64,000 bases of DNA, taken from NCBI GenBank assembly GCA_964016885.1, contig OZ024762.1, positions 26,598,001 to 26,662,000 on the forward strand. The letters are read 5' to 3'. The notes under the pieces are model-generated. The model saw only the letters and a list, made by a program, of their open reading frames with translations, ran no database searches and had not been told where the DNA came from. Made by a program: the position numbers and the translations under genes. Positions 1 to 63,467 of the stretch are shown piece by piece. Position 1 is the first letter of the stretch. Every line of letters begins with the position of its first letter. The DNA comes from Eledone cirrhosa (taxonomy: Eukaryota).

Positions 1-95
1 ACAGGGGTTCACTAGTAAATAATACGGCACCCCTTTACGGGGTGTCGTATTCGTATTCGTATTTGTGTAAAAATGCTTTTTTGAAAAATTTCAAC

Positions 96-2116
96 ATGGA
101 TAACACAAAAAAGAGAGAGAGCGCTGTCAGACAACACAGAGAGAGGGAGACTTTATCAGCATGTCAACAAGACAGCGTTCCAGCGGAGGTAAATATAAAC
201 GAAAATATTACAAAGGAAAAAAAGATTGTTACAGATTTAAAATTAACAAATATTTCTAACACAAACAACACCAACAATAACACCAACAACATCACCAACA
301 ACAACACCAAAAATAACAGCGGTAAAGTCGAGAACGACAATAACAAAAATAACAGTGGTAAGGTCGAGAACGACAATAACAATGACAATTACAACAGCCA
401 CAACAACAATAATAGTAGGAACAGTATCAACAAAAACAACAATAATAACAATAGCCACAATAACAGTAACAGCAGCAACAGTATCAACGAAAACAACACC
501 AACAACTGTACCAGCGAAAAGAACAACAATGACACCGATACCTGTAATAGCGACCTCAGCACCACCAGTAAGACCAGTAGCGGCAGCAATAGAGGTGCTG
601 CTGAATAAGAGACCACTTCTTTTGCAGGTGTCGCCCGAAATATCGAGACAGTGTTAGTCACAGAGGAGGAGATGGCAGTCGCAAGATGGTGACAAGAAGC
701 GCCCGATTTTTTCAAGGACCAGCAGCTACGAACGGTGACTTACCGCACCGTAAGCAAAATCTCACATCGAGTGGAGAGAGCCACGGAGGCTCAAATCCAA
801 AAGGCCTTGGGGTGCGTCTGGGCTCGCAAAACCCACATCACCCGAGGCAGAAAGTACGCCACAGTAGACGTACTTTTTGCCACCCCCCAGGAAGCAAAGT
901 CTCACTCTTTGGAAACCCTAAAGAGTGAGGAGTTAGTCTTGGTGCCCTCCTACTGCGGCAAGAAATTTGTGAGGGTCAAAGTGACCCAGGTCCCACCCGA
1001 CGTGCCCATACCTTGGCTGGCCGTGTCTGTCCTTGCTGGAATTGAGAACAGGGCGACCATGCTGCAAGTAGAAAAAATAGGGAGAGAGAACTGGTCAGGT
1101 ATAGGCATGCAAATGCTTATACAAACTGACCAGGAATGTATCGAGGCTATCCCCGATATCATAGACTTTGAGGAAGGACTCCAACTCCCTGTAAGTGTAG
1201 AAGGAAGACGACCAAAATGTTATCTCTGTGGGTCGAAAGGTCACCTCAGGGACTTTTGCCGCAGAAGACACCGAAGATGGCCCCTCTCCTTCCAATACCT
1301 GGTCCGCTGCTACCAAGAGCAGGACAGGCAACAAACGAAGAAGCCCCTTCCACGGTGAGTAGGAGGGCAACGTCCGTAGCACCGGTACCAAGGCCACGGA
1401 TAACTAAAGCAGCATCATCAGTAGCGGCAACACAAATAGCTACATTTGAAATGGCTACACCAGCAACAAAATTGCCGAAGAGGGCTCCACTACCACCACC
1501 AACAGCCGTGGAGCACTTACCCCTCCCAGACCCCACAGAAACCGACATGGAGTTTGAGGCGGGAGTGACGTGGCAAACAGTCTGCCACAAAAAACAAAAA
1601 ACAAAAAAACAAAAAAACAAAAAACAAAAAACAAAAAACAAAAAACAAAAAAACCTTAGATTCACCCTCCAAAAGTGAAGGCATACAAAGAGGGGTAAAG
1701 GCAGCAAGGAAACTTGCAGCAACACCACCAAAAACACCAACAACGCAAACACAACAAGACACTCACACCAAACAGCAACAAGAAGAAAACGGCAACAAAA
1801 TCACCCTCCCCCCAAAAAGTACACAGCCATAAACATAGCAAAAAAAGAACTCATAAAATATATAAAGCAGCACACAGACATCACGGAAAAAAATGACTAC
1901 ACCCCACCAACACCAAGAACTCTCTCGACAAACATAAGCATCATCGAAATCTCATTAGAACAATACAAACCTTTAAAACAAAAATTCCCCAACGCAGTTG
2001 GAGACTTCAGAGGGTCGGTTACCAAGAGGATATACACTGACATCCTCTTGGAAACACCCATGACCAGCGAAAGGGACGGTTCTACTGTCCCTTCACCACA
2101 CGAACAAGGTAAGTGA
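96..2116 (+). pseudogene. Tx1 ORF1 (gag-like, zinc knuckle), disrupted
   Basis: Asn-rich N-terminus, VSVEGRRPKCYLCGSKGHLRDFC (CX2CX4HX4C) in ORF 735..1358, then Pro/Thr/Lys-rich segments split across frames. Confidence 0.8.
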
Positions 2117-2148
2117 CCCTTTCTCATTTGCCCCGTTTCTCATCCAAC

Positions 2149-5100: not shown

Positions 5101-5566
5101 GCCGGTTCGAGATAAGTTCTACAGGCCCGGAAGTGCCGTTAGCCGAGCCTGTCCGAGATGCGCGCATAGCGACGAAACCGTTGTGGACGCACTCGTTCAG
5201 TGCCCGAGCATTGCTGACTTGTGGAGCTATGTCGAACAGTTGCTGTCACGTGTGGGACTGATCCGGTTGTCGACTTAGTCCATTGTGCAGATGGTCTCGC
5301 CGTCTTCCTTTGAAGAAGAAGGGCAGGCGGTTTTCATCTTCCTGGTGGCCATGGCAAAAGAGATTGTGTGGTGCACAAGGTTAAAAGGATTAAAGACAAA
5401 CACTTTCCTCTTCGGCGAATCCCTGATTAACTTTTTCAAGTTTCACTTGAAGAGGGAAATCAGGGTGGAGAGGCAAGTGCTGCTTTCTAGCAAGTTTGTT
5501 GAAAGGTGGGTGAATGTAGCGAGAATGGTCCGAGTGAATGGGACCACTCTGAATATACGTCTGTAG
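2149..5566 (+). pseudogene. Tx1 ORF2 (APE endonuclease + reverse transcriptase + CCHC), with stops and frameshifts
   Basis: LRIGSINARG, AISET, GDWNG, SYLDR, TDHK, GPGYWKL (APE); NFRPITLLN, DQSKAFDRV, SVRQGCPLS, YADD (RT); GGLG; CPRCAHSDETVVDALVQC. Spread over ORFs 2113..2352, 2380..2751, 2706..3452, 3558..4031, 4004..5278 and 5285..5566. Confidence 0.95.
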
Positions 5567-5853
5567 TTTGAGAGATGGAAAAATTGAGAGAGGGCGCTTA
5601 CCCTGGTAGTCAGTGTGGCCGTGGTCTTTTGTGTGGTTTTCACCACGAGTAACCCTCGGAGGTTTCCCCCCTATTGGGGAATTTTTCATTGTTTCAATTT
5701 TCATTTCATTGTTTATATATATATATGTTTTATGTCTTTTTTCTTTTCTTATATAAATAATAAAAATATTTACACGCACAAAACCCACAACGTACCGTCC
5801 TGTTCCGTCTGTGATGTTTTTCTTGATGTCAGCCCTTGTCGCCAATAAAGAAA

Positions 5854-5855
<2 letters not shown>

Positions 5856-5886
<31 letters not shown>

Positions 5887-8800
5887 CTTGAATCTCAGTC
5901 ATTGATGTTAGTTAACTGGAAAGTTTGTTGAAATGAATATAAAGCCACTACCTGCAGCCTCAGATATTCAGGACGTATCGGAGGGTTCTTGTTGTTCCCA
6001 GCAAGCATGCCTTTTGAAGCGTTCCTAAAAGCGTGAAGGGGCCAATTTTCTTTAACCATCCCTGGAAACTTTTTGAGATAGTCCCTAGTGCGCCTATGAC
6101 AATCGGGATCACTTTGACTTCATGGTCGTTCCAAATCCTTTTTACCTCCCACTTTAAGTCCTGGTATCGGTTTTCTCCCTCTCCTTCTCTTGCACTCTCG
6201 TGTCGAATGAGCAGGTTACATCTACAATCAGGCACGATCTATTTTCCTTGTCCAAAACCACCAGGTCAGGTCTATTGTGTTCCAGTTTCTTGTCCGTCTA
6301 TATCCTAAAATCCCATAGCACCTTCACCTGATCGTTTTCTATCACCGACTCTGGCTTATGCTCATACCACTTCTCAGAATGTGGTAAATTGTTTACTTTG
6401 CATAGGTGCCAGTGTATCACCCTGTCCATCACATCATGTCTCCAGCCCTTATAGTGAGTCTGGGCTAGGTGTTTACACTCGGATACAATGTGAGCCACAG
6501 TCTCCTCTCTCTCTTCACAGATCCTACACAGTGGGCTAGCCTCCTCCTTGTAAATATGGTGTTTCAGCCACTTCGTTTTGAGGGCCTGCTCTTGCGCAGC
6601 CATTAGCATTCCTTCTGTAGCCTTTTTAAGGACTCCTCTTTTTAACCAGTTCCATGTCTGTGGATCTCTAAATTCAGTTTTCTCAAAGAAGGTACAATGA
6701 AGGGGTTTGTCATGAAGGTTGGTCTTTCTCCTTGATGTTATTTCCTCCTTGGACATCCCTTGGTCTATTGTTCTCTCTCCTTCAGTACAATTCTGAGCAT
6801 TGGCTCCCTACTGTCGGTCATGTATTTGTGCAGGTTGTTTTTCTCCATCTGAACACAGTCCTCTATGCTGATAAGACCTCTTCCACCTGCAGATCTCTTT
6901 AAGTAGAGTCTATCGACATCACTCCTCTTGTGGAACATGTTGTAGATAGTCATTAGCTTCCTAGTCTTCCTATCCATTTCTTTTTGTTCAGCAACATTCC
7001 ATTTCAGAATTCCCTTATCTTCTCACCTGTTGGTACCTGGATTCCGTTGCTTCTGCTCAATTTACCCTTCTTCATCACTAGGACTCCACACTTATTAATA
7101 CGAAATTGCATGGACACTGTCAACAAGTATATCCATCTCCTTCTCACTCTTCCCAAAGAGTTTAAGATACTCCATGAAGAGGAAGTGGTTGATAGTAAGC
7201 TCTCCTTTTCCCAACTTGTATCCTGCTCTCACTTTTCGCAGTATAATGGTCAGGGGTATCAGGGCAAGGACAAACAATAGAGGAGACAGACAATCTCCCT
7301 GGAAGATACCTCTCTTGATCTTCACGCCTCCCAAGCATTCTCCAGCCGATGTTAACTCTGTTTTCCAGGACTTCATACTCTTGCTCAAACAACTGTCTGA
7401 TGTTATCTGCCACCTTGAAGATCTCTAGGCTTTTGGTTATCCAAGACTGAGGTACCATGTCGAATGCATTTTTGTAGTCTATCCATCCCATGACAAGACC
7501 AGTGTGTCTCCTCTTGCAATTCCTCATTACTATCTTATCAATAAGTAACTGGTCTTTTGTACCACGTGACGGCATCCTTTCTGTTCGTCGGTAACAAGTT
7601 GTTTGTGTGGAGGTGATGGTAGATTTCCTCAGACACAATGCTTGTCAACAGTTTCCACATTACGGACAGACATGTGATAGGTCTATAGTTGGTAACATCA
7701 TTACCCTTGATTCGGTCTTTCATTACCAGGATTGTGGTACGTTTTGTCAACCACTCTAGTACCTTACCCGACATCAAGCAGTAATTGAACAAGGTTGTCA
7801 GTTTTGGGTGGAGGGATGTTATATGTTTAATCCAATACCCCTGCACACCATCTGGACCTGATGATTTCCAGTTGGTTAGTTTTTTGGCCTGCCCTTTAAG
7901 AGTTTCAACTGTGATACTTAAATCAGTTTGTTGATGATACTTAAATCAGTTTGTTCACTGATCTCCTTTTGTACTGTCTCAATCCACACTGCCTGATTAT
8001 TATGTTCAACATCCTGCTCCCATATTCCTCTCCAGAATGTCTTAGTCTGTTCCACCTCAGGGATCAAGTCGTTACCTCTTTCTTTCCGTTCAAGCCGCCC
8101 AAACATCTTCTGGTTGTTGTCAAACATGCGGTTCTGTCTATACTGACTGACTCTCTCTCTCATACCGCCTAATCTTTGCACTCTTTGCTACAATGTGTTG
8201 CTTCAGTTCCTCTATGATAATATTTAGCTTTTTCCTCCTAGTTTTGTACTTTATTTCCAGTCTATTTTTAGTGTCTATGTTTTTTAGTGTCCCATTCAGT
8301 AGGGACTCAAGCTTTCCAATGTCATTTCTCATTTCCCTGATTTGACCATTCAGTCGTTTCTTCCACCAAGGTTCCGATCTTTCTTGTTTCTTGTTTCCTC
8401 TCGTTTTTATGCCAAGTAATTTCCTCGCCCCATATGCTGTTGCTTTGAGGATATTGTTGCATTGGTGAAGGTTCCTCGCCTCAAGGTATGGGATGACTTT
8501 GTTTACCTTAGCTGTTGTTTCTTTTAACTTTTTCCTGTCTACAAATCTTAGGTTCATAGGTTTCCCACTGCCATTGTTCATTTCATCTACCACTAAGTTT
8601 AGGATATCAACCAAATCTTGTCCTAGCCCGTCAGCATTCATTTCCTCGATGGCCGTATCTTTGTTCCAGGTATTATTTATTTCAGCATTCAGATCATTGT
8701 CTACTTCGGATGCTTCCCCCGTTCTCTCAACCTCTTCACCTTCATTTCCCACTGGCTCGTTTGCCTGGCATACTCCACTCTCTATTTCCAACCTAATCTC

Positions 8801-9200
8801 TCTGCTCATTTCCTTCAGTTCCTACTCGCTTATCCATCCATTAGTTCTTATTACTCGAGCTTGCCCAGCCAATTTTTGTTCATCTAATTTAAATAAACCA
8901 ATCTCGTTCCAGATGTTATGCATCCGTTTCCGATAGCCTTTTTCCTTGGGGTTACTCCTCAGGTAACATTGAATAACAGTTCTATTCAATTCTTTCGTCC
9001 AGTTGGTTCTGATCCCTTTCCTTCTTCTTCCTCCAACACCAGCAGTATTTGGATGACAGCCAGGTCCCTGCTTCTGGGCCAGGGAGCACCTGCTGGGTGA
9101 GACTTTGCCACATAACGTTCCAGTCTCCTCTTCACCGTTATTCGAACTGCTTAGGTTCGACATTTAAACACTCATATCGAAGATTGGTGAATGTATAGTT
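5856..9200 (-). mobile_element. R4/Dong-type non-LTR retrotransposon (RT + CCHC + restriction-like endonuclease), near full length, degenerate
   Basis: N-terminal NWTKELNRTVIQCY..GYRKRMHNIW; PWWKKRL; NYRPITCL; GTKDQLLID; [13 protein letters not shown]; GGRGLISIED; CRICEEREETVAHIVSEC; KVIPIVIGALGTI; LQKACLLGT. Ends in (TAA)n at 5856-5885 (minus strand), as is typical of Dong. The 5' boundary is approximate. Confidence 0.9.
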
Positions 9201-10350: not shown

Positions 10351-11090
10351 TTGCCAATGTGGACTTGGACAAACCGCATCGGGTCATCCAGATCATATCT
10401 AGATAGAGTATTTTGTAGGGAAACCGTCCTGCACGCACTCGTCCAGTGTCCGAGCATTGCTGACTTGTGGGTTTATGTCGAACACCTGCTGTCGCATGTA
10501 GGACGGTTCCAGCTATCAGCTGAGTCCATCGTGAGGATTGCCTCGCTCTCTTCCTTTAGCCGGGAAGGACAAGCAGTTTGTATCTGTCTGGTGGCCATGG
10601 CGAAAGAGATAGTATGGTGGACGCGTCTGAAAGGGCTGAAGACGAGCACTTACCACTTCGGTGATGCCCTGATTAACTTTTTCAAATTTCATTTGAAAAG
10701 GAAAATCAGGGTAGAGAGGGCAGTGGGCTCTTCCCAGTTTTTTGTTGAAAGATGGGTGAGAGAGGCAAGAATGGCCTGAGTGAATGGGCCTATTCTGAGT
10801 ATATACCTGTAAATTGAAGGTGGAAAACTGGGAGAGGCCACTTGCCCTGATGGTCAGGGTCACTGTGCCTTTTTAATGGGCTTTCTCCACGAATGATCCT
10901 CGGAAGTCTCCCCCCTATTGGGGAATTTTTGATTGTTATTTTGTTACATCCTCAGTTTTTTTTTACACGCAGAAATGCCCATTTGTACCGTTCTGTATTG
11001 TCCTGTACTGTCCTTAATGTCTACTTTATGTAAACCCTTGTGGTTAATAAAGAAAGCATGATTATCATTATTATTATTATTATTATTATC
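10351..11090 (+). mobile_element. Internally deleted, 5'-truncated Tx1 copy (subfamily A)
   Basis: MWTWTNRIGSSRSYLDRVFCRE (end of APE) joined in frame to TVLHALVQCPS (C-terminal zinc finger). The 3' UTR matches 5567-5855. (TTA)n on both flanks. Confidence 0.9.
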
Positions 11091-34250: not shown

Positions 34251-35143
34251 CGAGGTGCGTCAAAAAATGTCCAGGACTGATGTCACAAAAGATTTATTTC
34301 AAACCCAAACTTCACACTAAGAGTTTTCTCCTTCAAAGTGATCCCCCTGGAGTATGTAACTGTAATCATAGTTCTCTGCAGCGATCAAACTTTTATCTTC
34401 ATAATTTTATATACATGTCCTCAGTTTCAGGTCGGCAAGCAATGAGCACAGAGCAACGAACAAGCTTGAAAACACCGCCAGAAGCACTGGGATTGCTGCA
34501 GCAAGTGTATGGAGATAAGACGATGTCACGCTCACGTGTTTTTTGAGTGATGCAACAGGTTTAAAGAAGGACGCGAGGACGTGGAAGATGACCCCAGGAG
34601 CGGAAGACCCTCAACAACCATGACTGAGGTCAACGTTGAACGCATCAGGCAGATGGTGCATAGCGATCGTCCGCTGACTGTTCAACTGATGGCAAATGAG
34701 CTGGGCATGAATTGGGACAGCGTCTGGAATATTCTCACTGAAGATTTAGACATGCAGAAAGTCTGCGCGAAGATGGTGCCAAAACTGCTGAACGATGACC
34801 AGAATGGTCGACGCATGCAAGTGTGCCAGGACATCCTCGAGCGTCTTGAAACCGAACCAGACTTGCTAGTGACAGTCATCACCGGTGATGAGTCATGGAA
34901 CTTCGAGTACGACCCGGAGGGGACTCGTTTTGAAGACGTGGACGACATTAAAAAGGCCGTGACGACGGAACTGCGGAGGATCCCGAAATATCCTCCCAGG
35001 AATGCATACAAGCGTGGCAGAAAAGGATGGAAAATGAATTAGACTCCAGGGGGATTACTTTGAAGGAGAAAACTCTTAGTGTGAAGTTTGGGTTTGAAAT
35101 AAATCTTGTGTGACATCAGTCCTGGAACTTTTCTGACACACCT

Positions 35144-35182: not shown

Positions 35183-35323
35183 CGAAGGAGTTGTGGTAAG
35201 GAACCAGAGTACTCAATTCTTAGGATAGTAGAGTGGGTAATAGGAAAATGTATGACCCCGACGGCAGAGCTCAAGCCATTTCGCCGGCTATTTCTGGACT
35301 CCACAACTCCTTCGTTATCATTA

Positions 35324-38283: not shown

Positions 38284-39147
38284 TACTATAGAGTAAAGCA
38301 TGTCCAGAGAATTATTTGATAATATATATACATCATCTCTACTCCCAATCAGCATAATTAACCACACAAAAATCAATTAGACCAGGCTATAAGAATAAAA
38401 GGCATCTATGAAGAAACAGTAAATAAATATGCCACTGAGGTGTCTTTGCGCACAACCGCTATAGAATATTTATCCAATATTTCAACAGCACGTGGAAATT
38501 AATTAAATATACGGTCAACCATACATAATTAGGTAAAAATTAATGTTAGAAATGCTTATATACATACCAGGATTAAATCACTAAATCCCGACCCTTGAGT
38601 TTCGCTCACTTTTGAGATATCTTATTTAGGATAATACTCGAGTTTTAGAACTCTTCAGGGATAAACTCACTAGGACATATTATTTTCCGAAGTGGCCCCC
38701 GCCAAACACGGATTCAAAAGGGTTGAGAACTGTGACGTGGCAGTGGTCAAGTCATGAAGGGTGTGATTGGTTGCTTACGGCGAGTGGGTTGGTTGCTAGA
38801 AAGCGCAGCCCAATATCGCCCAAATTTTATCTCAACCTTATGGGAGATTATTAAATATAAAATATAAATATTTACACATACACCAATTAAACAAAGTCAC
38901 AGGTATATATGTGTTTTGGCAACTTTTCACGATGTGGCTCAATGAAGAATTAAATAATCAGAGCAAAATACTATAAAGTAAAGCATGTCCAGAGAATTAT
39001 TTAATGATATATATACATCATTTCTTCTCCCAACCAGCATAATTAACCATACAAAAAATCAATTAGACCAGGCTATAAGAATAAAAGGCATCTATGAAGA
39101 AACAGTAAATAAATACAGCACTGCGGCGTCTTCGCGCACAAGCGCTA

Positions 39148-39217: not shown

Positions 39218-39229
39218 TAGATATAGATA

Positions 39230-40200
39230 ATTTTCATTTTATTTGCCACCAGGGCATCAAAAAGTGGTACAAGTACAATGGGGGGAGTTAACATAACAAG
39301 GCGTCCTCAATAAGGAGGAGGGAATAACAAAATATAAAAGATAAAATATAAAATATAACAAAAATAAATTTAATAACAAAATCCTCAATAGGGAGGAGGC
39401 GCCTTGGGGGGTCGCACACACCCCCGAAAAAAGTGTGCAACTCTTCTCCTCAGGAGCACAGAGAAGGGGTGCTCACTTGATCTTTCATCTTCCTCACCTA
39501 TCGTCTGATGTAGAGTGAAGGGGCATTCACACGGGCCATTCTCGCCACTTTCACCCATCTTTCATAAAAACGGCTGGGGTGCAGCACCTCTCTCTCCATC
39601 CTGATCCTTCTTCCGAAATGATATCGGAAGAAACGGACCCGTTGTTGGCCAGAGAGAAAGGTGCCTGACCTCAGTCCTTTCAGACCCGTCCACCATACAA
39701 CCTCTTTCGCCATGGCTATTACGCACAGAAACACCACCTCTTCTTCGTTTTTGAAGAGAGGAGGCGGCTTGATCGTTACAATAGACTCGGTGGTCAACCG
39801 GATCGGTCCCACCCTTGACAGCAGTTGTTCGACATAGCCCCGCAGATCGGCAATGTCCGAGTAGTGTACCAATGCGTGTGCAACGGTTTCCTCGTCGCAC
39901 ACGCATCTGCGACAGATCTTTTTCGAGCGGTCCCTACCCGGGCGCCCGTGTCTTTAGAGCCTTTCTCGAACGGGCAGAGCCCTCAGTAGCACTGCCAGGC
40001 CAGGGACCTCTGGAAGTTATTCATGGGTCCCGGGCTGAAAGTCCTACCGAACAGGTTGGCCAGTTCGTCTTCCTCCATGCCTAGGGCTTCTCCGAGGGCG
40101 TCGTCGCACCTGCTAACCACCAGCCCTCTATAGAATGACGAGGTGGATTCTCCACTGACAGCCGGGTCCGCCTGCCAGAGAGCCGTGAGCGCCTGGGCAC
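39230..40200 (-). mobile_element. 5'-truncated Tx1 copy (subfamily B)
   Basis: C-terminal ORF2 (AQALTALWQADPA..CDEETVAHALVH..) plus 3' UTR, very similar to 60203-61170. GATA repeats at both junctions. Confidence 0.92.
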
Positions 40201-40897
40201 ATAGATAGATAGATAGATACATTTTCCTATATATATATATTGTAAGCAATGGAAAAGCAACATCACAACTTACAATTAAGGACAGAATGAAAACACACAC
40301 ACACATAGAACAAACAACCAACCAGTAACATGTAAAAAAACAAATAAATAAACAAATATAAACATATACAGACACCTGGATGTAACACATGCGCAAACTA
40401 AGCACACAACACACACAAAAACAAGATGACGTAGGACAGAACAAAGGAGAGGCACAAAAAACAAAGAAAAGAATCCCCAGTCACTGAAGAGGTCACAGAA
40501 TGTGTGACGAAAGAACTTTGACAATATATGAACAATGGTCTGGTTGTGGAACCAACCAACCAACCGGAAATTTATAAATTCCTAAATTTATAAATTTAAT
40601 TTATAATAAATTGAAGTGAAAGCTACTGGTGCGTGTGTTTCTTATTGGCAACATGACCCTCCCAAAGTATAACAATATCGGTTTCAAAACACGTTTTCAG
40701 ATAAAGAATCTTGCTAAACAAATTCAGAAACGAAATATATATATATATATATATATATAACAAAGAAAGTGTGGTAAGGAAACAAGTGGACCATAACGCA
40801 CCAGAGTACTCAAAACTTTTGTGTAATAGAGTGGGAATTAGGGAAAGAGTCAGGAACACTACGGCTCAGCTCCGGCCGTTTCGGCAGCTAGATCTAG

Positions 40898-40945
<48 letters not shown>

Positions 40946-52016: not shown

Positions 52017-52095
52017 CAAGGGGAGTAATAGAGGGAGAAACAGAGAGATAGATAGAAAGATAGAGAGATAGAGAGATAAACAAACAAATAGATAA
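50555..52095. repeat. (CAA/CAG)n, CA-rich, GA-rich and (GATA)n simple repeats
   Basis: Seen directly. Confidence 0.95.
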
Positions 52096-53987
52096 ATTTC
52101 TTTATTAGCCACAGGTATATACAGGTATATGAAAATAAAACTATTAATAAAATAACAAATAACAATTGAAATCCCCAATAGGGGGGAGGCGTTACACAGG
52201 GGTTGTACACACCCCGAAAAAATGTACAACCCTCATCTCCAGGAGCACCAAGAGTGAGTACTCTCCTTCTCTCTTTCTCTTTTTCCTCAACCTACATGCT
52301 TATATAGAGAGAAGGCCCAACCACTCGGGCCATCTTTGCCACATTCACCCATCTTTTATAAAATTTGCTGGGGTACAGCACCTCTCTCTCCAACCTGATT
52401 CTTCTTCCAAAATGATATTTGAAAAAACAAATCAGTTGCTCGCCGGAGAGAAAAGTGTCTGACCTCAGCACTTTTAACCTCGTCCACCATATAACCTCTT
52501 TGACCATAGCCATAACACATAGGAAAACCGCCTCTCTTTCGTTTTTGAAGGAGGGTGGCGATTTGATCATGATAATGGACTCGGTGGTCAACTGGACACC
52601 CGCGACAAAAGTCGTTCTACATAGCCCCACAGGTCGGTAACGCCCGGGCAGTGTACAAATGCGTGCGCGACGGTTTCCTCGTCGCGCACGCATTTCGGAC
52701 AGATCTTTTTTGAAGGGTCCCTGCCCGAGCGCCCGTGTCTGTAGAGCTTGTCTCGAACTGGTAGAGCTCCTCGGTAGCGCTGCCAGGCCAGGGACTTTTG
52801 GAAGTTGTCCATCGGTCCCGGGCGGAAGGTTCTACCGAACAAACTGGCCAGTTCGTCGTCTTCGACGCCTAGAGTTTCTCCTAGCGCGTCGTCGCACTAG
52901 CTGCGGATCAACCCTCTATAGAATGACGAAGTGGAGTCTCCACTGATCGCCGGGTCCGTTTGCCAGTATCCGGGTCCCTGTCTATGTGTTCTATCACGGT
53001 TGACTATGAAGACGACTAATTTGTGATCTGAATAGGCAACCATGTGCATTCATGGACAGCTTAACATCTCCCTGTCCCTTTCTCTTATGTAGAACCTATC
53101 TAAATACGATCTAGATGTCCCGCTGCGGTTTGACCACGTCCACTGTGGTGCAGTCGAGAATCAAGTCGATACCTATCGGCCAGTTGGAATTGGCCGATTA
53201 AAGCTTTGAGGCTGTCGCACGCCCCCCCCCCCCCCATCTACTGGGACATGATCCTAAATAGTCCCATCGTGCATCTAGGATACCATTCCAGTCCCCCACG
53301 AAAAGCAAAGAGCGAGACGTTACCTGAAAAGACTCTAGACGCTTGAAGTAGTCGGGCCGCGATTGCCGCGTTAAACGGCCACCAGTCTGAAGGCTCCATC
53401 TAGGACTACCAGTCGACCCTCCGGGTACAAATGTACTTGCTGTATTTCGATGTCCATGTTTTTCCGAAACATGACAGCTACTCCCCCTCCACCTCCTGGC
53501 TGACAGAGAGATGCGTAGATCTCAAACTCGTCGAAAATGGGGGTCAGCTGCTGTCTGCTGTGGATCCTGGACTCTGTGATGGCTATCACATCTATATCGT
53601 GTGACCTAAGGTCGTTTAAGAGTTTGCCCTGTTTCCAGCTCGTGGATCAGCCATTTTGGTGTAGAAGAGTTGGCAAAACAAGGACGAAAGGATGCACTTA
53701 CCTTTACGTTTCCTGGAGATCGGGTTGTTCGATCTCCATTTCAGTTTTGGTGGGGTTGTTGAGTGGGGTGGGGAAACATTTCAATAGGATACGGTTTATT
53801 GGTTTTTGGCATGGGTTGCCAACGTCTTGTGAACATTTGTGCTTTATGAGTTTGAGGTGTGGTGCAGTGTCAGATTTTACAATTGTTTTCCCCTCAGTTT
53901 CTACTTTGGTTTCCTGGGAGATGATCTCCATTAAATTTTTATTGTTGGTGTTGATGTATGTATATTGTTCTTTTGGTTGTGTTGTTT

Positions 53988-53989
<2 letters not shown>
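52096..53989 (-). mobile_element. Tx1 copy (subfamily B): ORF1 end + APE fused to the C-terminus, RT deleted
   Basis: IAITESRIHS..AFRLVAV, GDWNG, SYLDR, then HRQGPGYW|QTDPAISGDST junction at ~52965; CPKCVRDEETVAHAFVHC; 3' UTR ends in (TCTA)n. Confidence 0.9.
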
Positions 53990-54038
<49 letters not shown>

Positions 54039-57000
54039 ATTTGTTTATTTGCCACGAGAGCACAAAAGAAAGGGACACATACATGGGGGGGGGGAGTTTA
54101 CATAGAAATCGAGTAAAAAAATGTAATAACAAATAAAATTATAACAAAAAGGTCCTCAATAGGGAGGGATCGTTTTGGGTCACACGCTCACCCGAAAAGA
54201 AAGGTGCGACCCTTCTCTAAGGGAGCACAAAGAGAGGGTGCTCCCTTCTTCCTTCATCCTTTTCCACCTACAGGTTGAGGTAGAGAGAAGACCCATTTAC
54301 ACGGGCCATTCTCACAACTTTCACCCACCTTTCATAAAACTGGCTGGGGTGGAGCACCTCTCTCTCCATCCTGATCCTTCTTCCGAAATGGTATCGGATG
54401 AAAAGGACTAGTTGTTGGCCGGAAAGAAAGGTGTCGGACCTCAGCCCTTTTAGACGCGTCCACCATACAACCTCCTTTGCCATGGCTATTACACAGAGGA
54501 AGACCGCCTCTCCTTCATTTTTGAAGAGGGGAGGCGGCTTGATCATTAAAATGGACTCGGTGGTCAACCTCATTGGCCCCACCCGTGACAGCAGTTGTTC
54601 GACATAGCCCCACAGATCGGCAACGCCCGGGCAGTGTACCAATGCGTGCGCGATGGTTTCCTCGTCGCGCACGCATCTGGGACAGATCTTTTCGAGGGGT
54701 CCCTACCCGGACGCCCGTGTCTGTAGAGCTTATACCGAACGGAGAGAGGCCCTCGGTAGCATAGCCAGGCCAAGGACTTCTTGAAGTTGTCCATAGGTCC
54801 CGAGCCGAAAGTCCTACCGAATAGGCTGGCCAGTTCGTCCTCCTACATGCCTAGGGTTTCTCCGAGGGCGCCGTCGCACCTGCTAACCACCAGCCCTCTA
54901 TAGAATGACGAGGTAGAGTCTCCACCGATAGCCGGGTCCGCCTGCCAGAGAGTCGTGAGCGCCTAGGCACACTCGGTGTGCCAGTCGCCCAGTTTTCTCG
55001 GTCTTTGCTTCACCCAGGTCTGTAGCTCGGTGTGCGAGGTGAGCCTCGGGAAGGCTCTCTTCACAAACGGGGCCCACACTGGTTGACCGGTGAGGAATAC
55101 CTGGAGGTGCCGTAGCCTCAATGCATGTTTACACATTTTTAGCCACGGCATCCCCAGCCCTCCTTTCAAAGGGTGTTGATAGCAGATGGATTTCCTGACC
55201 AGAGGAGACCTCTTCCTCCAAAAGAAGTGAAAGAGAGCGCGCTCCATTTTGGCGAGGATCTCACCCGGGAAAGTCACGACAGTCAAGCGGTAATAGATGA
55301 CGGACGCTATGTAAGCTTTCGCCACCTCCGCCAGACCTTTCAGGGATAGTTTGCACTCGGCCCACTTCTGGGTCAGTGCAAACACCCTATTCGTCACTTC
55401 AGCCCAGTTTTTCTCCACCTGGAGGTACGGTCCGAACCAGACCCCAAGAAACTTTACCGGGCCCTCCGTCCATCGTCCGACGATACCGTCGGACGGCATC
55501 GGTTTTCCCCTCCACTCGCCGAGTTGCAAAGCGACTGACTTGTCCCGGTTCAGCTTAGCCCCGGTCAACCTTTCGTAGTGCTCCAGTAAGGTACCGATTG
55601 CCCCGAGTTCCGCGGTGGTCGACACCATTACTGTTACGTCATCGGCGTAGGCCGACACCGCTTTGCGCAATCCCGGTTCCAAAGGGATGCCCTGCAACAA
55701 CTCCAACTTCCGCAGTAGTGGCTCGTGAGTCAATACATACAGAAGGGAGGAGAGAGGGCACCCCTGTCGGATGGAGCAGGTGATTTCGAACGGCTCCGAG
55801 AGGTAGCCGTTCACCTTGACTCTAAAGCAGATGGGGCTGCTATGTATGGCAGTGATCCAGCCCTGAAAACGGGTCCGAAACCAGCCGCCACTAGCACCGC
55901 ATCCAGGTAACCATGGTCCACCCTATCGAAAGCTTTAGACTGATCTAAATTTATCAGGGCCCCACCAAAGCCGGGTTCGTTCCCAACCCTCTCTATGATG
56001 TATCGCATGAGGTGGAGTTTGTCGTGAATGGACCTGGACGGGATAGCGCATGTCTGCGCATCTCCCACCAGGCCCCCACGATAAGTGCCAACATCTTCGC
56101 TAACACCTTGGCCAAAATCTTTAACTCTGAATTTAGCAGAATTTTGGGCCTAACATTACTAATGTCATCCCCCTTGTTCTCGTCCTTTCTCACTAGCTAG
56201 ACTACGCCCTTGGTCACAGAACAGGGAATTCTTCCGTTCTGTTGCCAGTTGTTGTAGACCGCCTCGAGCAGATCGGGGAACAAGTCCGGCATATATAGTT
56301 CGTAGCGCAGACCATCGAGGCCTGGAGATTTGCGTTTGCCGCATAGGCTTAGCACGTCCGCTATTTCAGCAGCTGAGATCGGCCCGTCGCAGGATCTCGC
56401 CTCATCGTCCGAAAGACGCGGCAGGCCGTTGAGGTATGGACCTAAATCCACATCCCCAACTGGCCCACCGCCCCTCCCGAACAATCGGGCAAAGTGCCTT
56501 TGAAAGGTCTCGCATATTTGCTTAGGTTCAAGGATCAGCCGTCCATCCTGGTCTCGCAAAGACTGGATAGTGGATCTAATCCCACTTTTGGCTTCTGTCA
56601 CGCGGGCCCAGCTAACAGCTTTTGTCCCTCGTTTCCCAGAGCAAGTATTTTGCTTCGGACAACGGAGCCTTCGTGTTTCACGTCGAAGAACTGGCTCAAG
56701 GCCGTTCTCGACGCTTGCACTCTGGCCACGTCGCCGCTTCTCATTGCCTCTTCAACATTAACTACCAACTCCCTTTCCTTCCTATTTCTATCTGAGGATA
56801 ACTCCTTACTAACTCCTATTGAAAATACTCTAATCTCTCTTTTCAGAGAGCCCCACCCCCTGCTGTTGTCCATGGCGCCCGTCAACCGCTCCTTAACTAG
56901 GGTTCTAATCCGGTGCCTGTAACCTCTACTTGCCGGTAAGGACAAGTTGAGCTTCCAGTAATCGGGTCCCTGCCTATGCATTCTATCAAGGTGACTATAC

Positions 57001-57398
57001 AGGTCACTAACCTGTGGTCTGAATAGCGACCATGAGCATTTCTGGACAACTTAAAAAGTCCATATTCTTCATTCTAACTAAGAACCTATCTAGGTACGAT
57101 CTAGATTGACCGCTATGGTTTGTCCAAGTCCAGGTTGGCACAGTCGGAAAATCTAGTCGATATCTATCGGCCAGGTCAGATCGGCCGATTAACCCCTTGA
57201 GGTTGTTACACCCCCTCTATCGGGTCATGCCCTTACATAGTCCCAACGTGCATCTAGGATACCATTCCAGTCCCCCACTAAAATCAAGGAGCGGGACGTC
57301 CCTAGAAAAGTCCCCAGACGATGGAAGATGTCCGACCGCATTGCCCCAAAGGGGGCGTAAACGGCGACCAGCCTAAAAGCTTCGCCTTCACCACTGCC
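54039..57398 (-). mobile_element. Tx1 ORF2 copy (subfamily B), mid-APE to 3' end, frameshifted
   Basis: GEAFRLVAVYAP, GPDYWKLN, KSPGLDG, DQSKAFDRV, SIRQGCPLS, YADD, C-terminal zinc finger; AATAAA then (TCTA)n at 53990-54038. Confidence 0.93.
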
Positions 57399-58160
57399 AA
57401 GCTTGTGAAATGGGGAGGGGTGCTTTGTGTTGTGTTGGTTTCTTCTGTGTTTGTTTGGTTTCTGTTAGTGATATGTTTCCTTCTTTTCCTTTTTACTGGT
57501 CGGAACGGCTCTCCTTCATCTTCGCTATGCTCCGATGTAAGGAGGTTTTCATCCGCGTTCGGGGGTAGGGGGATATTTTGTGGTAGTGTTGTGTTGGTGT
57601 GTGTATTTTTGATTGTTTTCTGTGTGGGGTGGGTGGGTGTGACTGTGATTTGTTTCGTGGTCTTTTGTTTTTGTTGTCGTTGTGGTGGTGGTGGTGATGG
57701 TGGTGTATTTTGTTGTTTTTGTGGTGGTGGTGTTGGTTGTTTTTGTTGTTGCTGTGATGTTTGTAGCAGTAGTTTTGTTTGTTGTTAGTAGAGCGCAGGC
57801 TGTCCTCAGGTGACCTCTTCCAGCACAGTGGTAACATGAGGGCCTCCTGCCTTCCACCGTAAAATTAGTGAAAGTTCGACCATCCAGTAGTACTCGGTTG
57901 GGTATTCCGGCGATTCTCACTGGTGTCATCTGTATGAGATCCACCAGACTTTTCCCCCCGAACAGTCCACTGGTGGACTCACTTGCTGATACTAGAATGT
58001 CCTTTTCTACGTCCGTGAATCCTGTCAGGACGGACCAGATGTCTACTTCTGGCGTTGAGCTCCACATTCTTAATCTTTGTGTTCTTCTTCCTTTATATGT
58101 GGGAAGAAGGTGTATTGTGGTGACACTATAGGTGCCACCGACCGTTATTGAGCCACCATT
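57399..58160 (-). pseudogene. Tx1 ORF1 fragment with zinc knuckle
   Basis: FTVEGRRPSCYHCAGRGHLRTAC, homologous to VSVEGRRPKCYLCGSKGHLRDFC in the first element. Confidence 0.8.
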
Positions 58161-58270
58161 TGGTCCTTCATTCGTTCCGTATAACCATGTCCGCTACGAG
58201 CTGAGGATCCGCTAAGGTGAAACAAATGTTCTCGGTATGGTGAACTAACTGTTGTGTAACCAGTTTTATT

Positions 58271-59396: not shown

Positions 59397-60202
59397 ATAA
59401 TGGTAGCTATGGTGCTTCCATAGGCGGTATGCCAAAATTAGCACTCAATATTCATACAGAGTAGAGTGTGGATAGTATAAATAAACGAAAAATCAGTGAT
59501 GCATCTGAACCCAATTTATTGCGTGTTACAATTGTTTCGAGGGAAATAGGAAAAAGTATGACCCCGACGGCAGAGCTCAAGCTGTTTCGACGGCTATTTC
59601 GTGACCTTCAAGATAATAATATAACCTACAATCTCACTTGGAGCTTACTGTCCAGAGTTAAATCTTACACGGGAGGATGCCGTCCGTGTAACTTATGCTC
59701 GGAGGAAACATTACAAATGCTGTTTTCGAAGGACCAACTCCTAAACAAGAAAGACGTACTGGTAACCGCATGCAAACACAGATTGCGTAGGACTTATCTC
59801 GCCCTTAAACCCAATAACGACCCGGGTGGGTAGACAAGGGCTGAAACCCCCCTCCCACTTGCCGAATAAGTTAGGGGAAACACAAGCTTACATAGGTAGA
59901 TGTATCTCTTTTCTTTTCTTCTATATATTCTTCTTCCCCCTGTCTCATCCTATCACTTCCTTCCACCCCCTATTTTCTTCCTCGTCTGCTTTTCCCCTTT
60001 CGCCTACCCCGATGCAGCCCGTTGGGCCTCTGTAGCATCAGTTCCCCCACATCTGTCATTTTAAGATAGAATTGGCCAAATACGCTTTACTAACTACTTA
60101 TAGCAGATGTGTTAGACCCCTTTAATTTTGTATCATTTTTGTTACTACTCCATTTCTACAATGTTTTTCTATTCTCAACTTATTAACCTGTAAATGTAAG
60201 AT

Positions 60203-62650
60203 GTTTCTTTTATTTGCCACCAGGGCATCAAAAGTGGGACAAGTACAATGGGGGGAGTTTACAAAACAAGGCGTCCTCAATAAGGAGGAGGCAATAACAA
60301 TATATAAAAATAAAATAAAATATAACAAAAAATAAAATTTATAACAAAGTCCTCAATAGAGAGGAGGCGCCTTGGGGGGTCGCACAGACCCCCGAAAAAA
60401 GTGTGCAATCCTTCTCCGCAGGAGCACAGAGAAGGGGTGCTCCCTTGGTCTTTCATCTTCCTCACCTATAGTCTTATGTAGAGTGAAGGCCCATTCACAC
60501 GGGCCATTCTCGCCACTTTCACCCATCTTTCATAGAAACGGCTGGGGTGCAGCACCTCTCTCTCCATCCTGATCCTTCTTCCGAAATGATATCGGAAGAA
60601 ACGGACCAGTTGTTGGCCAGAGAGAAAAGTGTCTGACCTCAGTCCTTTCAGACGCGTCCACCATACAACCTCTTTCGCCATGGCCATTACGCACAGAAAC
60701 ACCGCCTCTCCTTCGTTTTTGAAGAGGGGAGGCGGCTTGATCGTTACAATAGACTCGGTGGTCAACCGGATCGGTCCCACCCTTGACAGCAGTTGTTCGA
60801 CATATCCCCACAGATCGGCAATGCCCGAGCAGTGTACCAATGCGTGTGCAACGGTTTCCTCGTCGCACACGCATCTGGGACAGACCTTTTTCGATGGGTC
60901 CCTACCCGGGCGCCCGTGTCTGTAGAGCCTTTCTCGAACGGGCAGAGCCCTTCTGTAGCATTGCCAGGCCAGGGACCTCTGGAAGTTATCCATGGGTCCC
61001 GGGCTGAATGTCCTACCGAACAGGTTGGCCAGTTCGTCTTCCTCCATGCCTAGGGCTTCTCCGAGGGCGTCGTCGCACCTGCTAACCACCAGCCCTCTAT
61101 AGAATGACGAGGTGGATTCTCCACTGACAGCCGGGTCCGCCTGCCAGAGAACCGTGAGCGCCTGGGCACACACGGTGTGCCAGGCGCCCAGTTTTCTCGG
61201 TCTTTGCTTGACCCAGGATTGCAGCTCGGTGAGTGAGACGAGTCTGGGAAAGGCTCGCCTCACAAACGGGGCCCACACCGGTTGACCGGAGAGGAATACC
61301 TGAAGGTGCCGTAGCCTTAATGCGTGTTTACGTATCATCAGCCACGGCATCCCCAGCCCTCCTTTTGAAGGGTGTTGACAGCAGATGGATCTCCTCACCA
61401 TAGGAGCCCGCTTCTTCCAAAGGAATTGGAAGAGTGGGCGCTCCATTTTGGCGAGCGTTTCCCTTGGGCAAGGCACCACGGTCAGGCGGTAGTAGATGAC
61501 GGACGCTATATAAGTGTTCGCCACCTCCGCCCGACCTTTCAGGGACAGTTTGCACTCGGCCCACTTCTGGGTCAGTGCAAACACCCTGCTCGTCACCTCA
61601 CCCCAGTTCTTCTGCACCTGGAGGTCTGGTCCGAACCAGACCCCGAGCAATTTCACCGGGCCCTCCGTCCAGCGCCCGACGATGCCATCGGAGGGCATCG
61701 ATCTTCCGCTCCACGTGCCGAGTTGCAGACCGATCGACTTGTCCCGGTTCAGCTTAGCCCCTGTAAACCTTTCGTACTCCTCCAGTAAGGTGCCGATCGC
61801 CCCGATTTCCGAGGCCGTCGACACCATTACTGTTACGTCATCGGCGTAGGCTGACACCGCTTTCCGCAATCCCGGTTCCAACGGGATGCCCTGCAACAAC
61901 TCCAACTTCCGCAGCAGTGGCTCTAGAGTCACTACATACAGAAGGAAGGAGAGAGGGCACCCCTGTCGGATGGACCGCGCGATTTCGAACGGCTCCGAGA
62001 GGTAGCGGTTCACCTTGACCCTAGAGCAGATGGGGCTGCTGTGCATGGCATTGATCCAGCCCCTGAAAACGGGTCCGAAGCTTGCCGCCGCTAGCACCGC
62101 ATCCATGTAACCATGGTCGACCCTATCGAATGCCTTAGATTGATCCAAGTTGATCAGGGCCCCACCAAAGCCGGGTTCGTTCCCAACCCTCTCTATGATG
62201 TATCGCATGAGGTGGAGGTTATCGTGGATGGACCTGGACGGGATAGCACATGTCTGCGCATCTCCCACCAGGTTGCCCACGACAAGCGCCAACCTCTTTG
62301 CTAGCACCTTGGCCAAAATCTGTAACTCTGTATTTAGCAGAGTTATGGGCCTGAAATTATTTATATCGTCCCCCTTGTTCTCGTCCTTCCTCACTAGCGT
62401 GACTACGCCCTTGGTCACAGCACAGGGAATTCTCTCGTTCTGTCGCCAGTTGCAGTAGACCGCCTCGAGGAGTTCGGGGAACAAGTCCGGCATAGCTAGA
62501 TATAGTTCGTATGGAAGACCATCGAGTCCCGGGGATTTGCGTTTGCCGCATTGGCTCAGCACATCCTCTATCTCAGCGGCTGAAATCGGCTCCTCGCAGG
62601 ACTTAGTCTCCCTGTCCGAGAGACGCGGCAGGCCGTCGAGGTATGGACCG
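60203..62650 (-). mobile_element. Young 5'-truncated Tx1 insertion (subfamily B) with a 140-bp flanking duplication
   Basis: 60063-60202 is identical to 62651-62790; 3' UTR with AATAAA. Confidence 0.95.
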
Positions 62651-62667
62651 AAGATAGAATTGGCCAA
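60466..62667 (-). CDS. Uninterrupted 5'-truncated Tx1 ORF2 reading frame (RT + CCHC)
   Basis: 733-aa open frame: KSPGLDGLP, NFRPITLLN, DQSKAFDRV, SIRQGCPLS, YADD, CPRCVCDEETVAHALVHC. The first codons come from the flank and the endonuclease is missing, so expression is doubtful. Confidence 0.75.
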   Translation of the reverse strand: MANSIFGPYLDGLPRLSDRETKSCEEPISAAEIEDVLSQCGKRKSPGLDGLPYELYLAMPDLFPELLEAVYCNWRQNERIPCAVTKGVVTLVRKDENKGDDINNFRPITLLNTELQILAKVLAKRLALVVGNLVGDAQTCAIPSRSIHDNLHLMRYIIERVGNEPGFGGALINLDQSKAFDRVDHGYMDAVLAAASFGPVFRGWINAMHSSPICSRVKVNRYLSEPFEIARSIRQGCPLSFLLYVVTLEPLLRKLELLQGIPLEPGLRKAVSAYADDVTVMVSTASEIGAIGTLLEEYERFTGAKLNRDKSIGLQLGTWSGRSMPSDGIVGRWTEGPVKLLGVWFGPDLQVQKNWGEVTSRVFALTQKWAECKLSLKGRAEVANTYIASVIYYRLTVVPCPRETLAKMERPLFQFLWKKRAPMVRRSICCQHPSKGGLGMPWLMIRKHALRLRHLQVFLSGQPVWAPFVRRAFPRLVSLTELQSWVKQRPRKLGAWHTVCAQALTVLWQADPAVSGESTSSFYRGLVVSRCDDALGEALGMEEDELANLFGRTFSPGPMDNFQRSLAWQCYRRALPVRERLYRHGRPGRDPSKKVCPRCVCDEETVAHALVHCSGIADLWGYVEQLLSRVGPIRLTTESIVTIKPPPLFKNEGEAVFLCVMAMAKEVVWWTRLKGLRSDTFLSGQQLVRFFRYHFGRRIRMEREVLHPSRFYERWVKVARMARVNGPSLYIRL

Positions 62668-63092
62668 ATACGCTTTACTAACTACTTATAGCAGATGTGT
62701 TAGACCCCTTTAATTTTGTATCATTTTTGTTACTACTCCATTTCTACAATGTTTTTCTATTCTCAACTTATTAACCTGTAAATGTAAGATAGCATTGTGA
62801 TTTTTTTAATTCTTTTCTCACTATCTAATTTTATATTTTTTTCTTTCTATTATCTTTTATTGTCCCCTACTCTCATTCGAATTACCTTTTCTATGACCTC
62901 CCTCCTTCATGTCATAACCTATCCTTAGAATCTGCTGTATACATATCACTTTCAACGCTTGACCGGCTCCACTCACTCCCCTATTCTTCTACAGGCAAGT
63001 TCAGTCACCCCTACCTCCCACCAAATGCCATGAAAAGTTAGTCCAGAAATAGCCGTCGAAACGGCTTGAGCTCTGCCGTCGGTGTCATACTT

Positions 63093-63467
<375 letters not shown>

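What the first reader, a model, noticed from the sequence alone, without database searches (positions are those of the whole stretch)
60063..62790. Perfect 140-bp target-site duplication around a young Tx1 insertion, with AAGAT(AG) at both ends
Seen: 60063-60202 and 62651-62790 are identical by eye and directly flank a 5'-truncated Tx1 with an intact reading frame. The paralogous empty site at ~23838-23990 has this segment once. The duplication starts at AAGATAG and ends at AAGAT|AG, so both putative nicks lie in the GATA-like motif this subfamily favours. Established: APE-type LINE TSDs are normally under ~30 bp; a 126-bp TSD is reported for the RLE element R9 of bdelloid rotifers. Inference: the second-strand nick or 5' junction was made at the next cognate motif 140 bp away, a distance close to one nucleosome wrap.
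Basis: partly seen in the sequence, partly recalled or inferred. Interest (0 to 1): 0.72.

Follow-up and report, generated by a model that had tools for sequence, protein, structure and literature searches.

The report
Motif-to-motif long retrotransposon target duplication
A young copy-and-paste retrotransposon that normally lands in GATA repeats and duplicates about 5 bases has here duplicated 140 bases, from one copy of its target word to the next; long duplications are known, but this single case hints that the element's own enzyme picks the second cut by sequence.

Summary
60063-60202 and 62651-62790 are identical (140/140) and directly flank a 2,448-bp 5'-truncated Tx1-like LINE whose 728-codon frame is unbroken. 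A paralogous host repeat has the segment once. AAGATAG occurs only twice in the 1,013-bp reconstructed empty site, exactly at the two boundaries, 135 bp apart. The two siblings with both junctions readable have 5-6 bp duplications in the same WAGAT|AG register, so 140 = the family's 5-bp stagger + 135-bp motif spacing. A 2-3 nt microhomology makes the true length 137-140. Best reading (0.55): a one-step insertion whose top-strand cut was made at the next cognate motif. The same sequence would result from a 135-bp microhomology duplication plus an ordinary 5-bp TSD, and an assembly misjoin cannot be excluded without reads. The nucleosome idea has no support. TSDs over 100 bp are already reported for APE-type LINEs (human L1 in HeLa cells, ZfL2-2) and for Dualen. 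What I did not find in print is a motif-to-motif long TSD or a (GATA)n-targeting Tx1-like lineage. One case only. Interest 0.4; new variant of a known kind.

The parts
60063..60202 (+). Left copy of the 140-bp duplication (3' side of the element): 135-bp unit 60063-60197 plus AAGAT
62651..62790 (+). Right copy of the 140-bp duplication (5' side of the element)
60203..62650 (-). 5'-truncated Tx1-like LINE, 2,448 bp, no poly(A) tail, ends AATAAAAGAAAC
60466..62652 (-). ORF2 fragment (RT + C-terminal zinc-binding domain), 728 codons plus stop, unbroken; no endonuclease domain left
60203..60465 (-). 3' UTR, 263 bp
60198..60202 (+). Motif 2, left half (AAGAT|): inferred first nick and priming site; the whole AAGATAG is at 62786-62792
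60063..60069 (+). Motif 1 (AAGATAG), 135 bp from motif 2; inferred site of the top-strand break; repeated at 62651-62657
62651..62653 (-). 2-3 nt microhomology at the 5' junction (TT of a conserved Phe codon; a third base if the parent's preceding Asp codon was GAC)
   Evidence: F at this position in 91 of 96 homologues covering the junction; Asp before it in copies A and B and in P0001
59550..60062 (+). Host repeat, left part: Penelope-like remnant with a 76-aa GIY-YIG-like C-terminal peptide (59603-59830) and an inverted copy of its far end (59550-59600)
   Evidence: atlas lead, 0.95; no Pfam hit, no homologue
62791..63096 (+). Host repeat, right part, ending at (TA)n; 63046-63096 differs from the inverted left end at 2 of 51 positions
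23606..24412 (+). Paralogous host copy without the insertion; single copy of the segment at 23848-23984
39229..40201 (-). Sibling C (96.5% identical over the compared segment), 5'-truncated, flanked by TAGAT (5 bp; 6 with microhomology), (GATA)4 at its 5' side
52094..53987 (-). Sibling D (82%), internally deleted, 5' end approximate, longest TSD in register TAGAT (5 bp), (GATA)12 at its 5' side
54037..58190 (-). Sibling B (89%), 3' end in the same (GATA)12 array, head-to-tail with D; 5' end not recognisable

Best explanation
One target-primed reverse transcription event by a (GATA)n-preferring Tx1-like LINE at a lone target word. (1) The APE endonuclease nicked the + strand at AAGAT|AG (60202), and the 3'-OH primed cDNA synthesis on the RNA 3' end. 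(2) Synthesis stopped or was captured after about 2.45 kb. (3) The opposite strand was cut not 5 nt away in the same word, as in siblings C and D, but at the same position in the next AAGATAG, 135 bp further on. (4) The duplex between the staggered nicks was opened, the freed 3' end paired with the cDNA through TT or CTT, and fill-in copied the 137-140 bp twice. Shown: the junction sequences, the single-copy paralog, the motif positions, the siblings' register and the 2-nt microhomology. Inferred: the nick positions, that the element's own endonuclease made the second cut, and the order of steps.
For: Exact 140/140 copies with the element between them. Single copy in the paralog. The only two AAGATAG in 1,013 bp mark the two ends; chance 1 of 688 exact, 7 of 671 with 3-nt slack. 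All 4 of 4 3' junctions of the subfamily follow AGAT, and all 3 of 3 readable 5' junctions precede WAGATAG. All 3 of 3 (GATA)3+ arrays in the window lie within 78 bp of an end of these copies; 2% of the window is that close. C and D give TSDs of 5-6 bp in the same register. Both flanks look like one host insertion: its inverted ends differ at 2 of 51 positions, the lowest of 28 pairs among 8 copies, the next being 4. Sequence-specific top-strand cleavage by an APE domain is shown for R1Bm (PMC1919474, passages). Paired nicks yield tandem duplications (PMC11081867, passages). Radical target alterations go with 5'-truncated L1 copies (PMC2912911, passages).
Against: One case. The identical sequence arises from a 135-bp duplication plus a 5-bp TSD. 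Siblings show that a 5-bp stagger within one word works, so nothing forces the skip to the next word. In C and D the motif at the 5' junction is trivial because it lies in an array, arrays mutate, and D's 5' boundary is uncertain by a few bases. This copy's 3' end (GAAAC) differs from the siblings' (GAAAATT, GAAATTT, CAAATTT), so the 3' register could be off. Long L1 TSDs in cells rise when NER is missing and are ascribed to distant, unrelated nicks (PMC5223499, passages). The endonuclease is absent from this copy and was not assayed. No reads were available.
Confidence: 0.55

Rival explanations
1. Slippage during the same insertion. The cDNA end first paired at motif 2, copied a few bases (AAGATAG), then re-annealed by that 7-nt repeat at motif 1 on the exposed top strand. 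A host flap nuclease resolved the branch. No sequence-specific second nick is needed.
For: A 7-nt direct repeat sits exactly at both ends, and there is a 2-3 nt microhomology at the 5' junction. Y-intermediate and microhomology end-joining models exist for 5'-truncated L1 (PMC2912911, passages).
Against: It needs an extra template switch and about 140 nt of exposed top strand. No extra or templated bases are seen at the junction.
Confidence: 0.15
2. Two steps. A 135-bp tandem duplication arose first by slippage or end-joining between the two AAGATAG words; the element then inserted at the junction word with an ordinary 5-bp TSD.
For: The product is identical to the observed sequence and gives the siblings' TSD length. 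One other near-identical local duplication exists in the window (29629-29852 / 29946-30169).
Against: It needs two independent young events at one point (0 of 140 differences; 95% upper bound 2.1%). There are 36 AGATAG matches outside masked repeats in this window, and the only other recent tandem duplication has (TA)n ends. The paralog has one copy.
Confidence: 0.1
3. A long TSD from a distant nick chosen by host repair or chromatin (for example a nucleosome edge), with the motif at the 5' end by chance.
For: TSDs over 100 bp occur in up to 10% of L1 events in HeLa cells and in most events in NER-deficient cells (PMC5223499); 1 of 25 ZfL2-2 inserts in wild-type DT40 cells had 1,228 bp (PMC2666801). 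137-140 bp is near the 147-bp core (recalled).
Against: Chance of landing on the motif is 0.15-1%. Siblings have 5-6 bp TSDs, so there is no peak near nucleosome length among the 3 readable copies. The word 'nucleosome' occurs 0 times in the two papers searched for it.
Confidence: 0.1
4. A chimera. Two separate insertions, one at each motif, on two haplotypes or near-identical host copies, were joined through the element by recombination or by the assembler.
For: It explains a motif at both ends with only ordinary 5-bp TSDs. Reads were not available, and PLE-type loci are said to trouble assemblies (PMC8557442, passages).
Against: The one known host paralog differs by 8-12%; zero differences in 140 bp has P about 2e-8 at 12% and 0.003 at 4%. 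The two flanks share the best-matching inverted ends (2 of 51). There is no N in the window and the ORF is unbroken. An allelic version needs two independent hits within 135 bp.
Confidence: 0.1

Closest known systems
Microsatellite-targeting Tx1 elements: Kibi (TC)n, Koshi (TTC)n, crocodilian Tx1 in (TTCC)n/(TTTC)n (PMC4494074 passages and section 15; PMC3812793 passages)
   Same: L1-group ORF2 closer to Tx1L than to human L1; microsatellite preference; head-to-tail copies around the target, as described there for SINEU-3.
   Different: Target is (GATA)n, which is not among the targets named in the passages read. The lineage groups with cephalopod sequences, not with the fish/amphibian Tx1L cluster.
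Long TSDs of human L1 and zebrafish ZfL2-2 in cultured cells (PMC5223499, PMC2666801, PMC4245944, passages)
   Same: APE-type LINE, rare outlier TSD over 100 bp in a family whose usual TSD is short.
   Different: Those are engineered insertions in cell lines, ascribed to distant or host-made nicks. Here the copy is in a genome assembly and the far end sits on the element's own target word in the family register.
R9 of bdelloid rotifers, 126-bp TSD (cited in PMC9977147; original paper seen as a title only)
   Same: Similar length.
   Different: R9 is rDNA-specific (title), and an RLE element with a family-wide fixed TSD (recalled). Here siblings have 5-6 bp TSDs, so the long TSD is not a family trait.
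Dualen-4b_cRei of Chlamydomonas (PMC9977147, passages)
   Same: De novo LINE insertions flanked by long duplications (over half >50 bp, median 900 bp).
   Different: Dualen has both RLE and APE endonucleases and makes long TSDs routinely; no motif-to-motif rule appears in the passages read.
R1Bm endonuclease (PMC1919474, passages)
   Same: Precedent for an APE domain that cuts both strands sequence-specifically and so sets the TSD.
   Different: Fixed 14-bp TSD in rDNA, R1 clade; no skipping to a distant site appears in the passages read.

Membership tests
Target-site duplication of a TPRT insertion | Identical direct repeats abut both ends of the element | tested here: met
   140/140, maximal, directly adjacent
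Target-site duplication of a TPRT insertion | Single copy at the empty site | tested here: inconclusive
   Single in a paralog about 10% diverged; the true empty allele is not available
Target-site duplication of a TPRT insertion | Duplication made by the insertion event itself | not testable with these tools
   The two-step product is identical in sequence; needs population alleles
L1 group (APE-type) LINE | RT plus C-terminal zinc-binding domain nearest to L1-group ORF2 | tested here: met
   RVT_1 and zf-RVT; best solved-structure hits are LINE-1 ORF2p, 136 bits against 75 for R2
L1 group (APE-type) LINE | N-terminal APE endonuclease | tested here: inconclusive
   Lost from this copy by truncation. 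Full-length homologues carry PF03372; siblings keep decayed remnants (copy A E=0.15; copy D E=2.6e-5 to one named L1-like row)
Tx1 clade | RT phylogeny within Tx1 | tested here: inconclusive
   Xenopus Tx1L ORF2 scores 238 bits, 35% identity, against 136 bits for human L1. In trees of 16 and 15 named rows it groups with Argonauta and Acanthosepion rows (100/99), in an unresolved assemblage with Tx1L, apart from two assumed L1-like rows. No curated reference set; D's EN remnant scored better to an L1-like row than to Tx1L
Tx1 clade | Target-sequence preference (many members) | tested here: met
   4 of 4 3' junctions after AGAT, 3 of 3 readable 5' junctions at WAGATAG, 3 of 3 GATA arrays near element ends; window-scale sample only
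Tx1 clade | ORF1 with zinc knuckle (feature recalled) | tested here: inconclusive
   CCHC-like motifs in ORF1 remnants of A and B, Pfam E=0.052 and 0.27, below cut-off
R9-type fixed long TSD | Long TSD is the family's regular product | tested here: not met
   Siblings C and D have 5-6 bp; no long repeat flanks C or E
Penelope-like element (host repeat) | C-terminal GIY-YIG endonuclease | tested here: inconclusive
   76-aa remnant: atlas top cluster 'GIY-YIG domain-containing fragment' 0.95; no Pfam hit; no homologue
Penelope-like element (host repeat) | Inverted truncated copy at the 5' end forming terminal inverted repeats | tested here: met
   59550-59600 is the inverse of 63046-63096, 49 of 51; structure described in PMC8557442
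Penelope-like element (host repeat) | Hammerhead ribozyme in the terminal repeat | tested here: not met
   No Rfam match at gathering score in the window; the copy is decayed and divergent forms may be missed

The most novel reading that the evidence does not exclude
This (GATA)n-targeting Tx1-like lineage makes its second-strand cut by sequence, at a fixed register in any available target word, including one over 100 bp from the priming nick. TSD length across the genome would then equal about 5 plus the spacing between target words (5, 9, 13... in arrays; 140 here). That would be natural, genome-scale evidence that the element's endonuclease, not host repair or a fixed distance, places the second nick, and that it can act at a distance.
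Probability: 0.4. Interest if true: 0.7.

Novelty: new variant of a known kind. Interest (0 to 1): 0.4.

Why it matters
Who makes the second-strand cut in APE-type LINE insertion, and where, is described as poorly understood in the papers consulted (PMC4245944, PMC5223499). Non-specific LINEs give no handle on it. A family with a short target word that occurs both in arrays and alone is a natural test: if TSD length follows motif spacing, the cut is sequence-directed. It would also mean that target-specific LINEs can duplicate over 100 bp of flanking DNA, which a TSD search limited to short repeats (5-30 bp in PMC2912911) would miss. As it stands this is one locus, and long TSDs as such are known.

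Tried and rejected
Nucleosome-length explanation: no support (n=1; siblings 5-6 bp; length explained by motif spacing). Family-wide long TSD as in R9: rejected by C and D; no long flanking repeat at C or E. A hidden long TSD for D split by B: the unique part of D's left flank occurs once in the window, so not found. Hairpin in the duplicated segment: folds no better than shuffles, z=+1.34. Host pseudo-LTR as the source of the repeat: the paralog has it once and the copies abut the LINE exactly. The + strand reads TTTT|AA at 60062|63, like the L1 nick consensus, but on the wrong strand for a second nick; treated as chance. Rfam: 0 matches. The syn/nonsyn count was out of frame and was discarded; redone (against B 117 syn / 112 nonsyn in 720 codons; against C 7 / 18 in 233 codons, with 2 stops in C). 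Names for cluster members could not be looked up. A recalled report of ~200-bp repeats around nematode RTE-1 was not confirmed and is not relied on. No eukaryotic genome collection was available, so no copy outside the window, no empty allele and no reads were examined; the viral and metagenome collections stayed unchecked, and the prokaryotic, phage and plasmid collections were not used. Supplement of PMC4494074 (Tx1 target lists) could not be read and may bear on whether a GATA target is known; Repbase and Kojima & Fujiwara 2004 were not seen.
Full report
OBSERVATION. The two segments 60063-60202 and 62651-62790 are identical, and the match cannot be extended on either side. Between them lies a 2,448-bp element on the minus strand: a 263-bp 3' UTR ending AATAAAAGAAAC without a poly(A) tail, and 728 codons of ORF2 without an internal stop. 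Pfam finds RVT_1 and zf-RVT. The endonuclease domain and ORF1 are gone, so the copy is 5'-truncated. A second copy of the host repeat at 23606-24412 aligns with the left flank and the right flank in order and holds the segment once; it differs by 10%, 12% and 8% in the left, duplicated and right parts. It is a paralog, not the empty allele. With the window masked for microsatellites, the 140-bp pair is the longest perfect direct repeat outside the element copies themselves (19 runs of 40 bp or more listed).

THE ELEMENT. The best named relatives are cephalopod proteins (Argonauta hians 62%; Acanthosepion pharaonis 50%). I did not establish the species. Xenopus Tx1L ORF2 scores 238 bits and human L1 ORF2p 136 bits. 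Trees of the RT region with 15 and 14 named rows place it with the cephalopod rows (100/99), in an unresolved group with Tx1L and apart from two rows I assumed to be L1-like. 'Tx1-like' is fair; formal clade membership is not shown. The copy is young: zero differences in 140 bp bounds divergence at 2.1% (95%), and its branch from the node shared with sibling C is 0.006 against 0.030. Differences from older sibling B fall mostly on third codon positions (66/47/142).

THE FAMILY'S TARGET. The window holds six related copies. Four (focal, B, C, D) are 80-97% identical to each other; A and E form a separate group (bootstrap 100) and end in (ATT)n. All 4 of 4 copies of the first group have AGAT directly at the 3' junction. 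All 3 of 3 readable 5' junctions begin at WAGATAG; B's 5' end is not recognisable. All 3 of 3 (GATA)3+ arrays in the window lie within 0, 3 and 78 bp of an end of these copies, whereas 2% of the window is within 100 bp of an end. Arrays at 5' junctions (C, D) argue for a target rather than a tail. D and B sit head-to-tail around (GATA)12. In the GAT| register the longest TSD is TAGAT for D and TAGAT or ATAGAT for C. These two values are soft: arrays slip, and D's 5' boundary has no reference.

THE KEY POINT. In the 1,013-bp empty site rebuilt by removing the element and one copy, AAGATAG occurs twice, at 60063 and 60198, the two boundaries; AGATAG and GATAG on that strand also occur only there. 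The 140 bp are therefore a 135-bp motif spacing plus the 5-bp stagger seen in siblings. The chance of this is 1 of 688 positions exactly, or 7 of 671 lengths with 3 nt of slack; the motif is defined by the siblings, not by this locus alone. With the loose word AGAT it would be 35 of 671. At the 5' junction the element's first codon is TTC, and Phe stands there in 91 of the 96 homologues (of 120 examined) that cover the junction. So TT belongs to both element and target, and a third base is shared if the parent's preceding Asp codon was GAC, as in copy A. The true TSD is 137-140 bp.

THE HOST. The flanks are one decayed repeat with a 76-residue peptide that the ESM Atlas places nearest a GIY-YIG fragment cluster (0.95; no Pfam hit; no sequence homologue) and with an inverted copy of its far end, a layout described for Penelope-like elements (PMC8557442, passages). 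The two inverted ends differ at 2 of 51 positions, the closest of 28 pairs among 8 copies of this terminus in the window. That supports both flanks being one host insertion, though 51 bp is little.

MECHANISM. Best reading (0.55): the endonuclease nicked at AAGAT|AG, cDNA synthesis ran about 2.45 kb, the opposite strand was cut in the family's register but in the next target word, and the long overhang was joined to the cDNA by 2-3 nt of pairing and filled in. Precedents: R1Bm endonuclease cuts the top strand sequence-specifically (PMC1919474, passages), and paired nicks give tandem duplications (PMC11081867, passages). Rivals: slippage of the cDNA end between the two 7-mers during the same event (0.15); a prior 135-bp tandem duplication followed by an ordinary 5-bp TSD, which gives the identical sequence (0.1); a random or chromatin-set distant nick (0.1); a recombinant or misassembled join of two insertions (0.1). 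These weights are my judgement. The two-event rivals need two young events at one point. The random rival pays a factor of about 100 for the motif. Together, 'made in one insertion event' gets about 0.8.

AGAINST MY READING. It is one locus. Siblings show that the short stagger works, so there is no evident reason for the skip. This copy's last bases differ from its siblings'. A second near-identical local duplication in the window (29629-29852 / 29946-30169) shows that recent duplications, or haplotype artefacts, do occur here. No reads or alleles could be examined.

COMPARISON WITH THE KNOWN. Long TSDs are not new for APE LINEs. Passages of PMC5223499 give TSDs over 100 bp in up to 10% of L1 events in HeLa cells and in 57-91% in NER-deficient lines. 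PMC2666801 gives 1 of 25 ZfL2-2 inserts with 1,228 bp. PMC9977147 gives Dualen duplications of median 900 bp and cites the 126-bp R9 TSD. PMC1291365 says L1 TSDs range to several hundred nucleotides. PMC4245944 reports clade-specific short peaks and calls the second cut not well understood. Microsatellite-targeting Tx1 families are known for (TC)n, (TTC)n, (TTCC)n and (TTTC)n (PMC4494074 passages and section 15; PMC3812793 passages). I found no (GATA)n target and no motif-to-motif long TSD. These searches cover open-access text only; Repbase, Kojima & Fujiwara 2004 and the supplement of PMC4494074 were not seen. An Octopus vulgaris annotation lists 13 recently active L1-Tx1 families but has no mention of target sites in main text or supplement (PMC13282606, passages and supplement search). 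All papers were read as keyword passages, not whole; PMC3636483, PMC5035012 and PMC2861651 gave nothing beyond a reference title and one passage on loose top-strand cleavage in R2.

VERDICT. A real, probably one-step long TSD around a young Tx1-like copy. The length is a known kind of outlier and the nucleosome link is unsupported. The in-register motif at both ends is unlikely to be chance, and it turns an open question into a simple genome-wide test. New variant of a known kind; interest 0.4, or 0.7 if the spacing rule holds (probability about 0.4).

Noticed in passing
window 52094-58190: Two copies of the GATA-associated subfamily (D, B) lie head-to-tail around a (GATA)12 array at 53990-54037, as expected from repeated targeting of one microsatellite.
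   Followed up: partly
window 1-5856 and 10352-11057: Two more distant copies (A, E; 64-70% to the GATA group) form their own clade and end in (ATT)n arrays, suggesting a switch of target or tail between sister lineages. A is near full length with ORF1 and a decayed endonuclease; E has a large internal deletion.
   Followed up: partly
window 29629-29852 and 29946-30169: Near-identical 317-bp-period tandem duplication, both copies starting after (TA)n and differing only around a T-run; it is one arm of a palindrome with 30236-30303. A recent duplication or a haplotype artefact.
   Followed up: partly
window 38298-38459 and 38983-39145: 162-bp direct repeats (91%) bound a repeat whose paralog (27424-28174) also has terminal direct repeats, so they belong to the element and are not a TSD.
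   Followed up: partly
window 20524-20723, 22597-22795, 24351-24412, 35197-35300, 40760-40908: Many copies of the host's roughly 50-bp terminal sequence, some as head-to-head palindromes and several next to (TA)n.
   Followed up: partly
window 23420-23572 and 58186-58265: A roughly 150-bp palindromic insert; one arm-length copy interrupts or ends the ORF1 region of sibling B.
   Followed up: no
window 34551-35042: Remnant with a homeodomain-like HTH_32 match (E=2.9e-6), resembling a mariner-type transposase fragment (resemblance recalled).
   Followed up: no
window 6298-8821: Decayed minus-strand remnant of a different LINE (zf-RVT E=9e-5), not related to the Tx1-like copies at DNA level.
   Followed up: no
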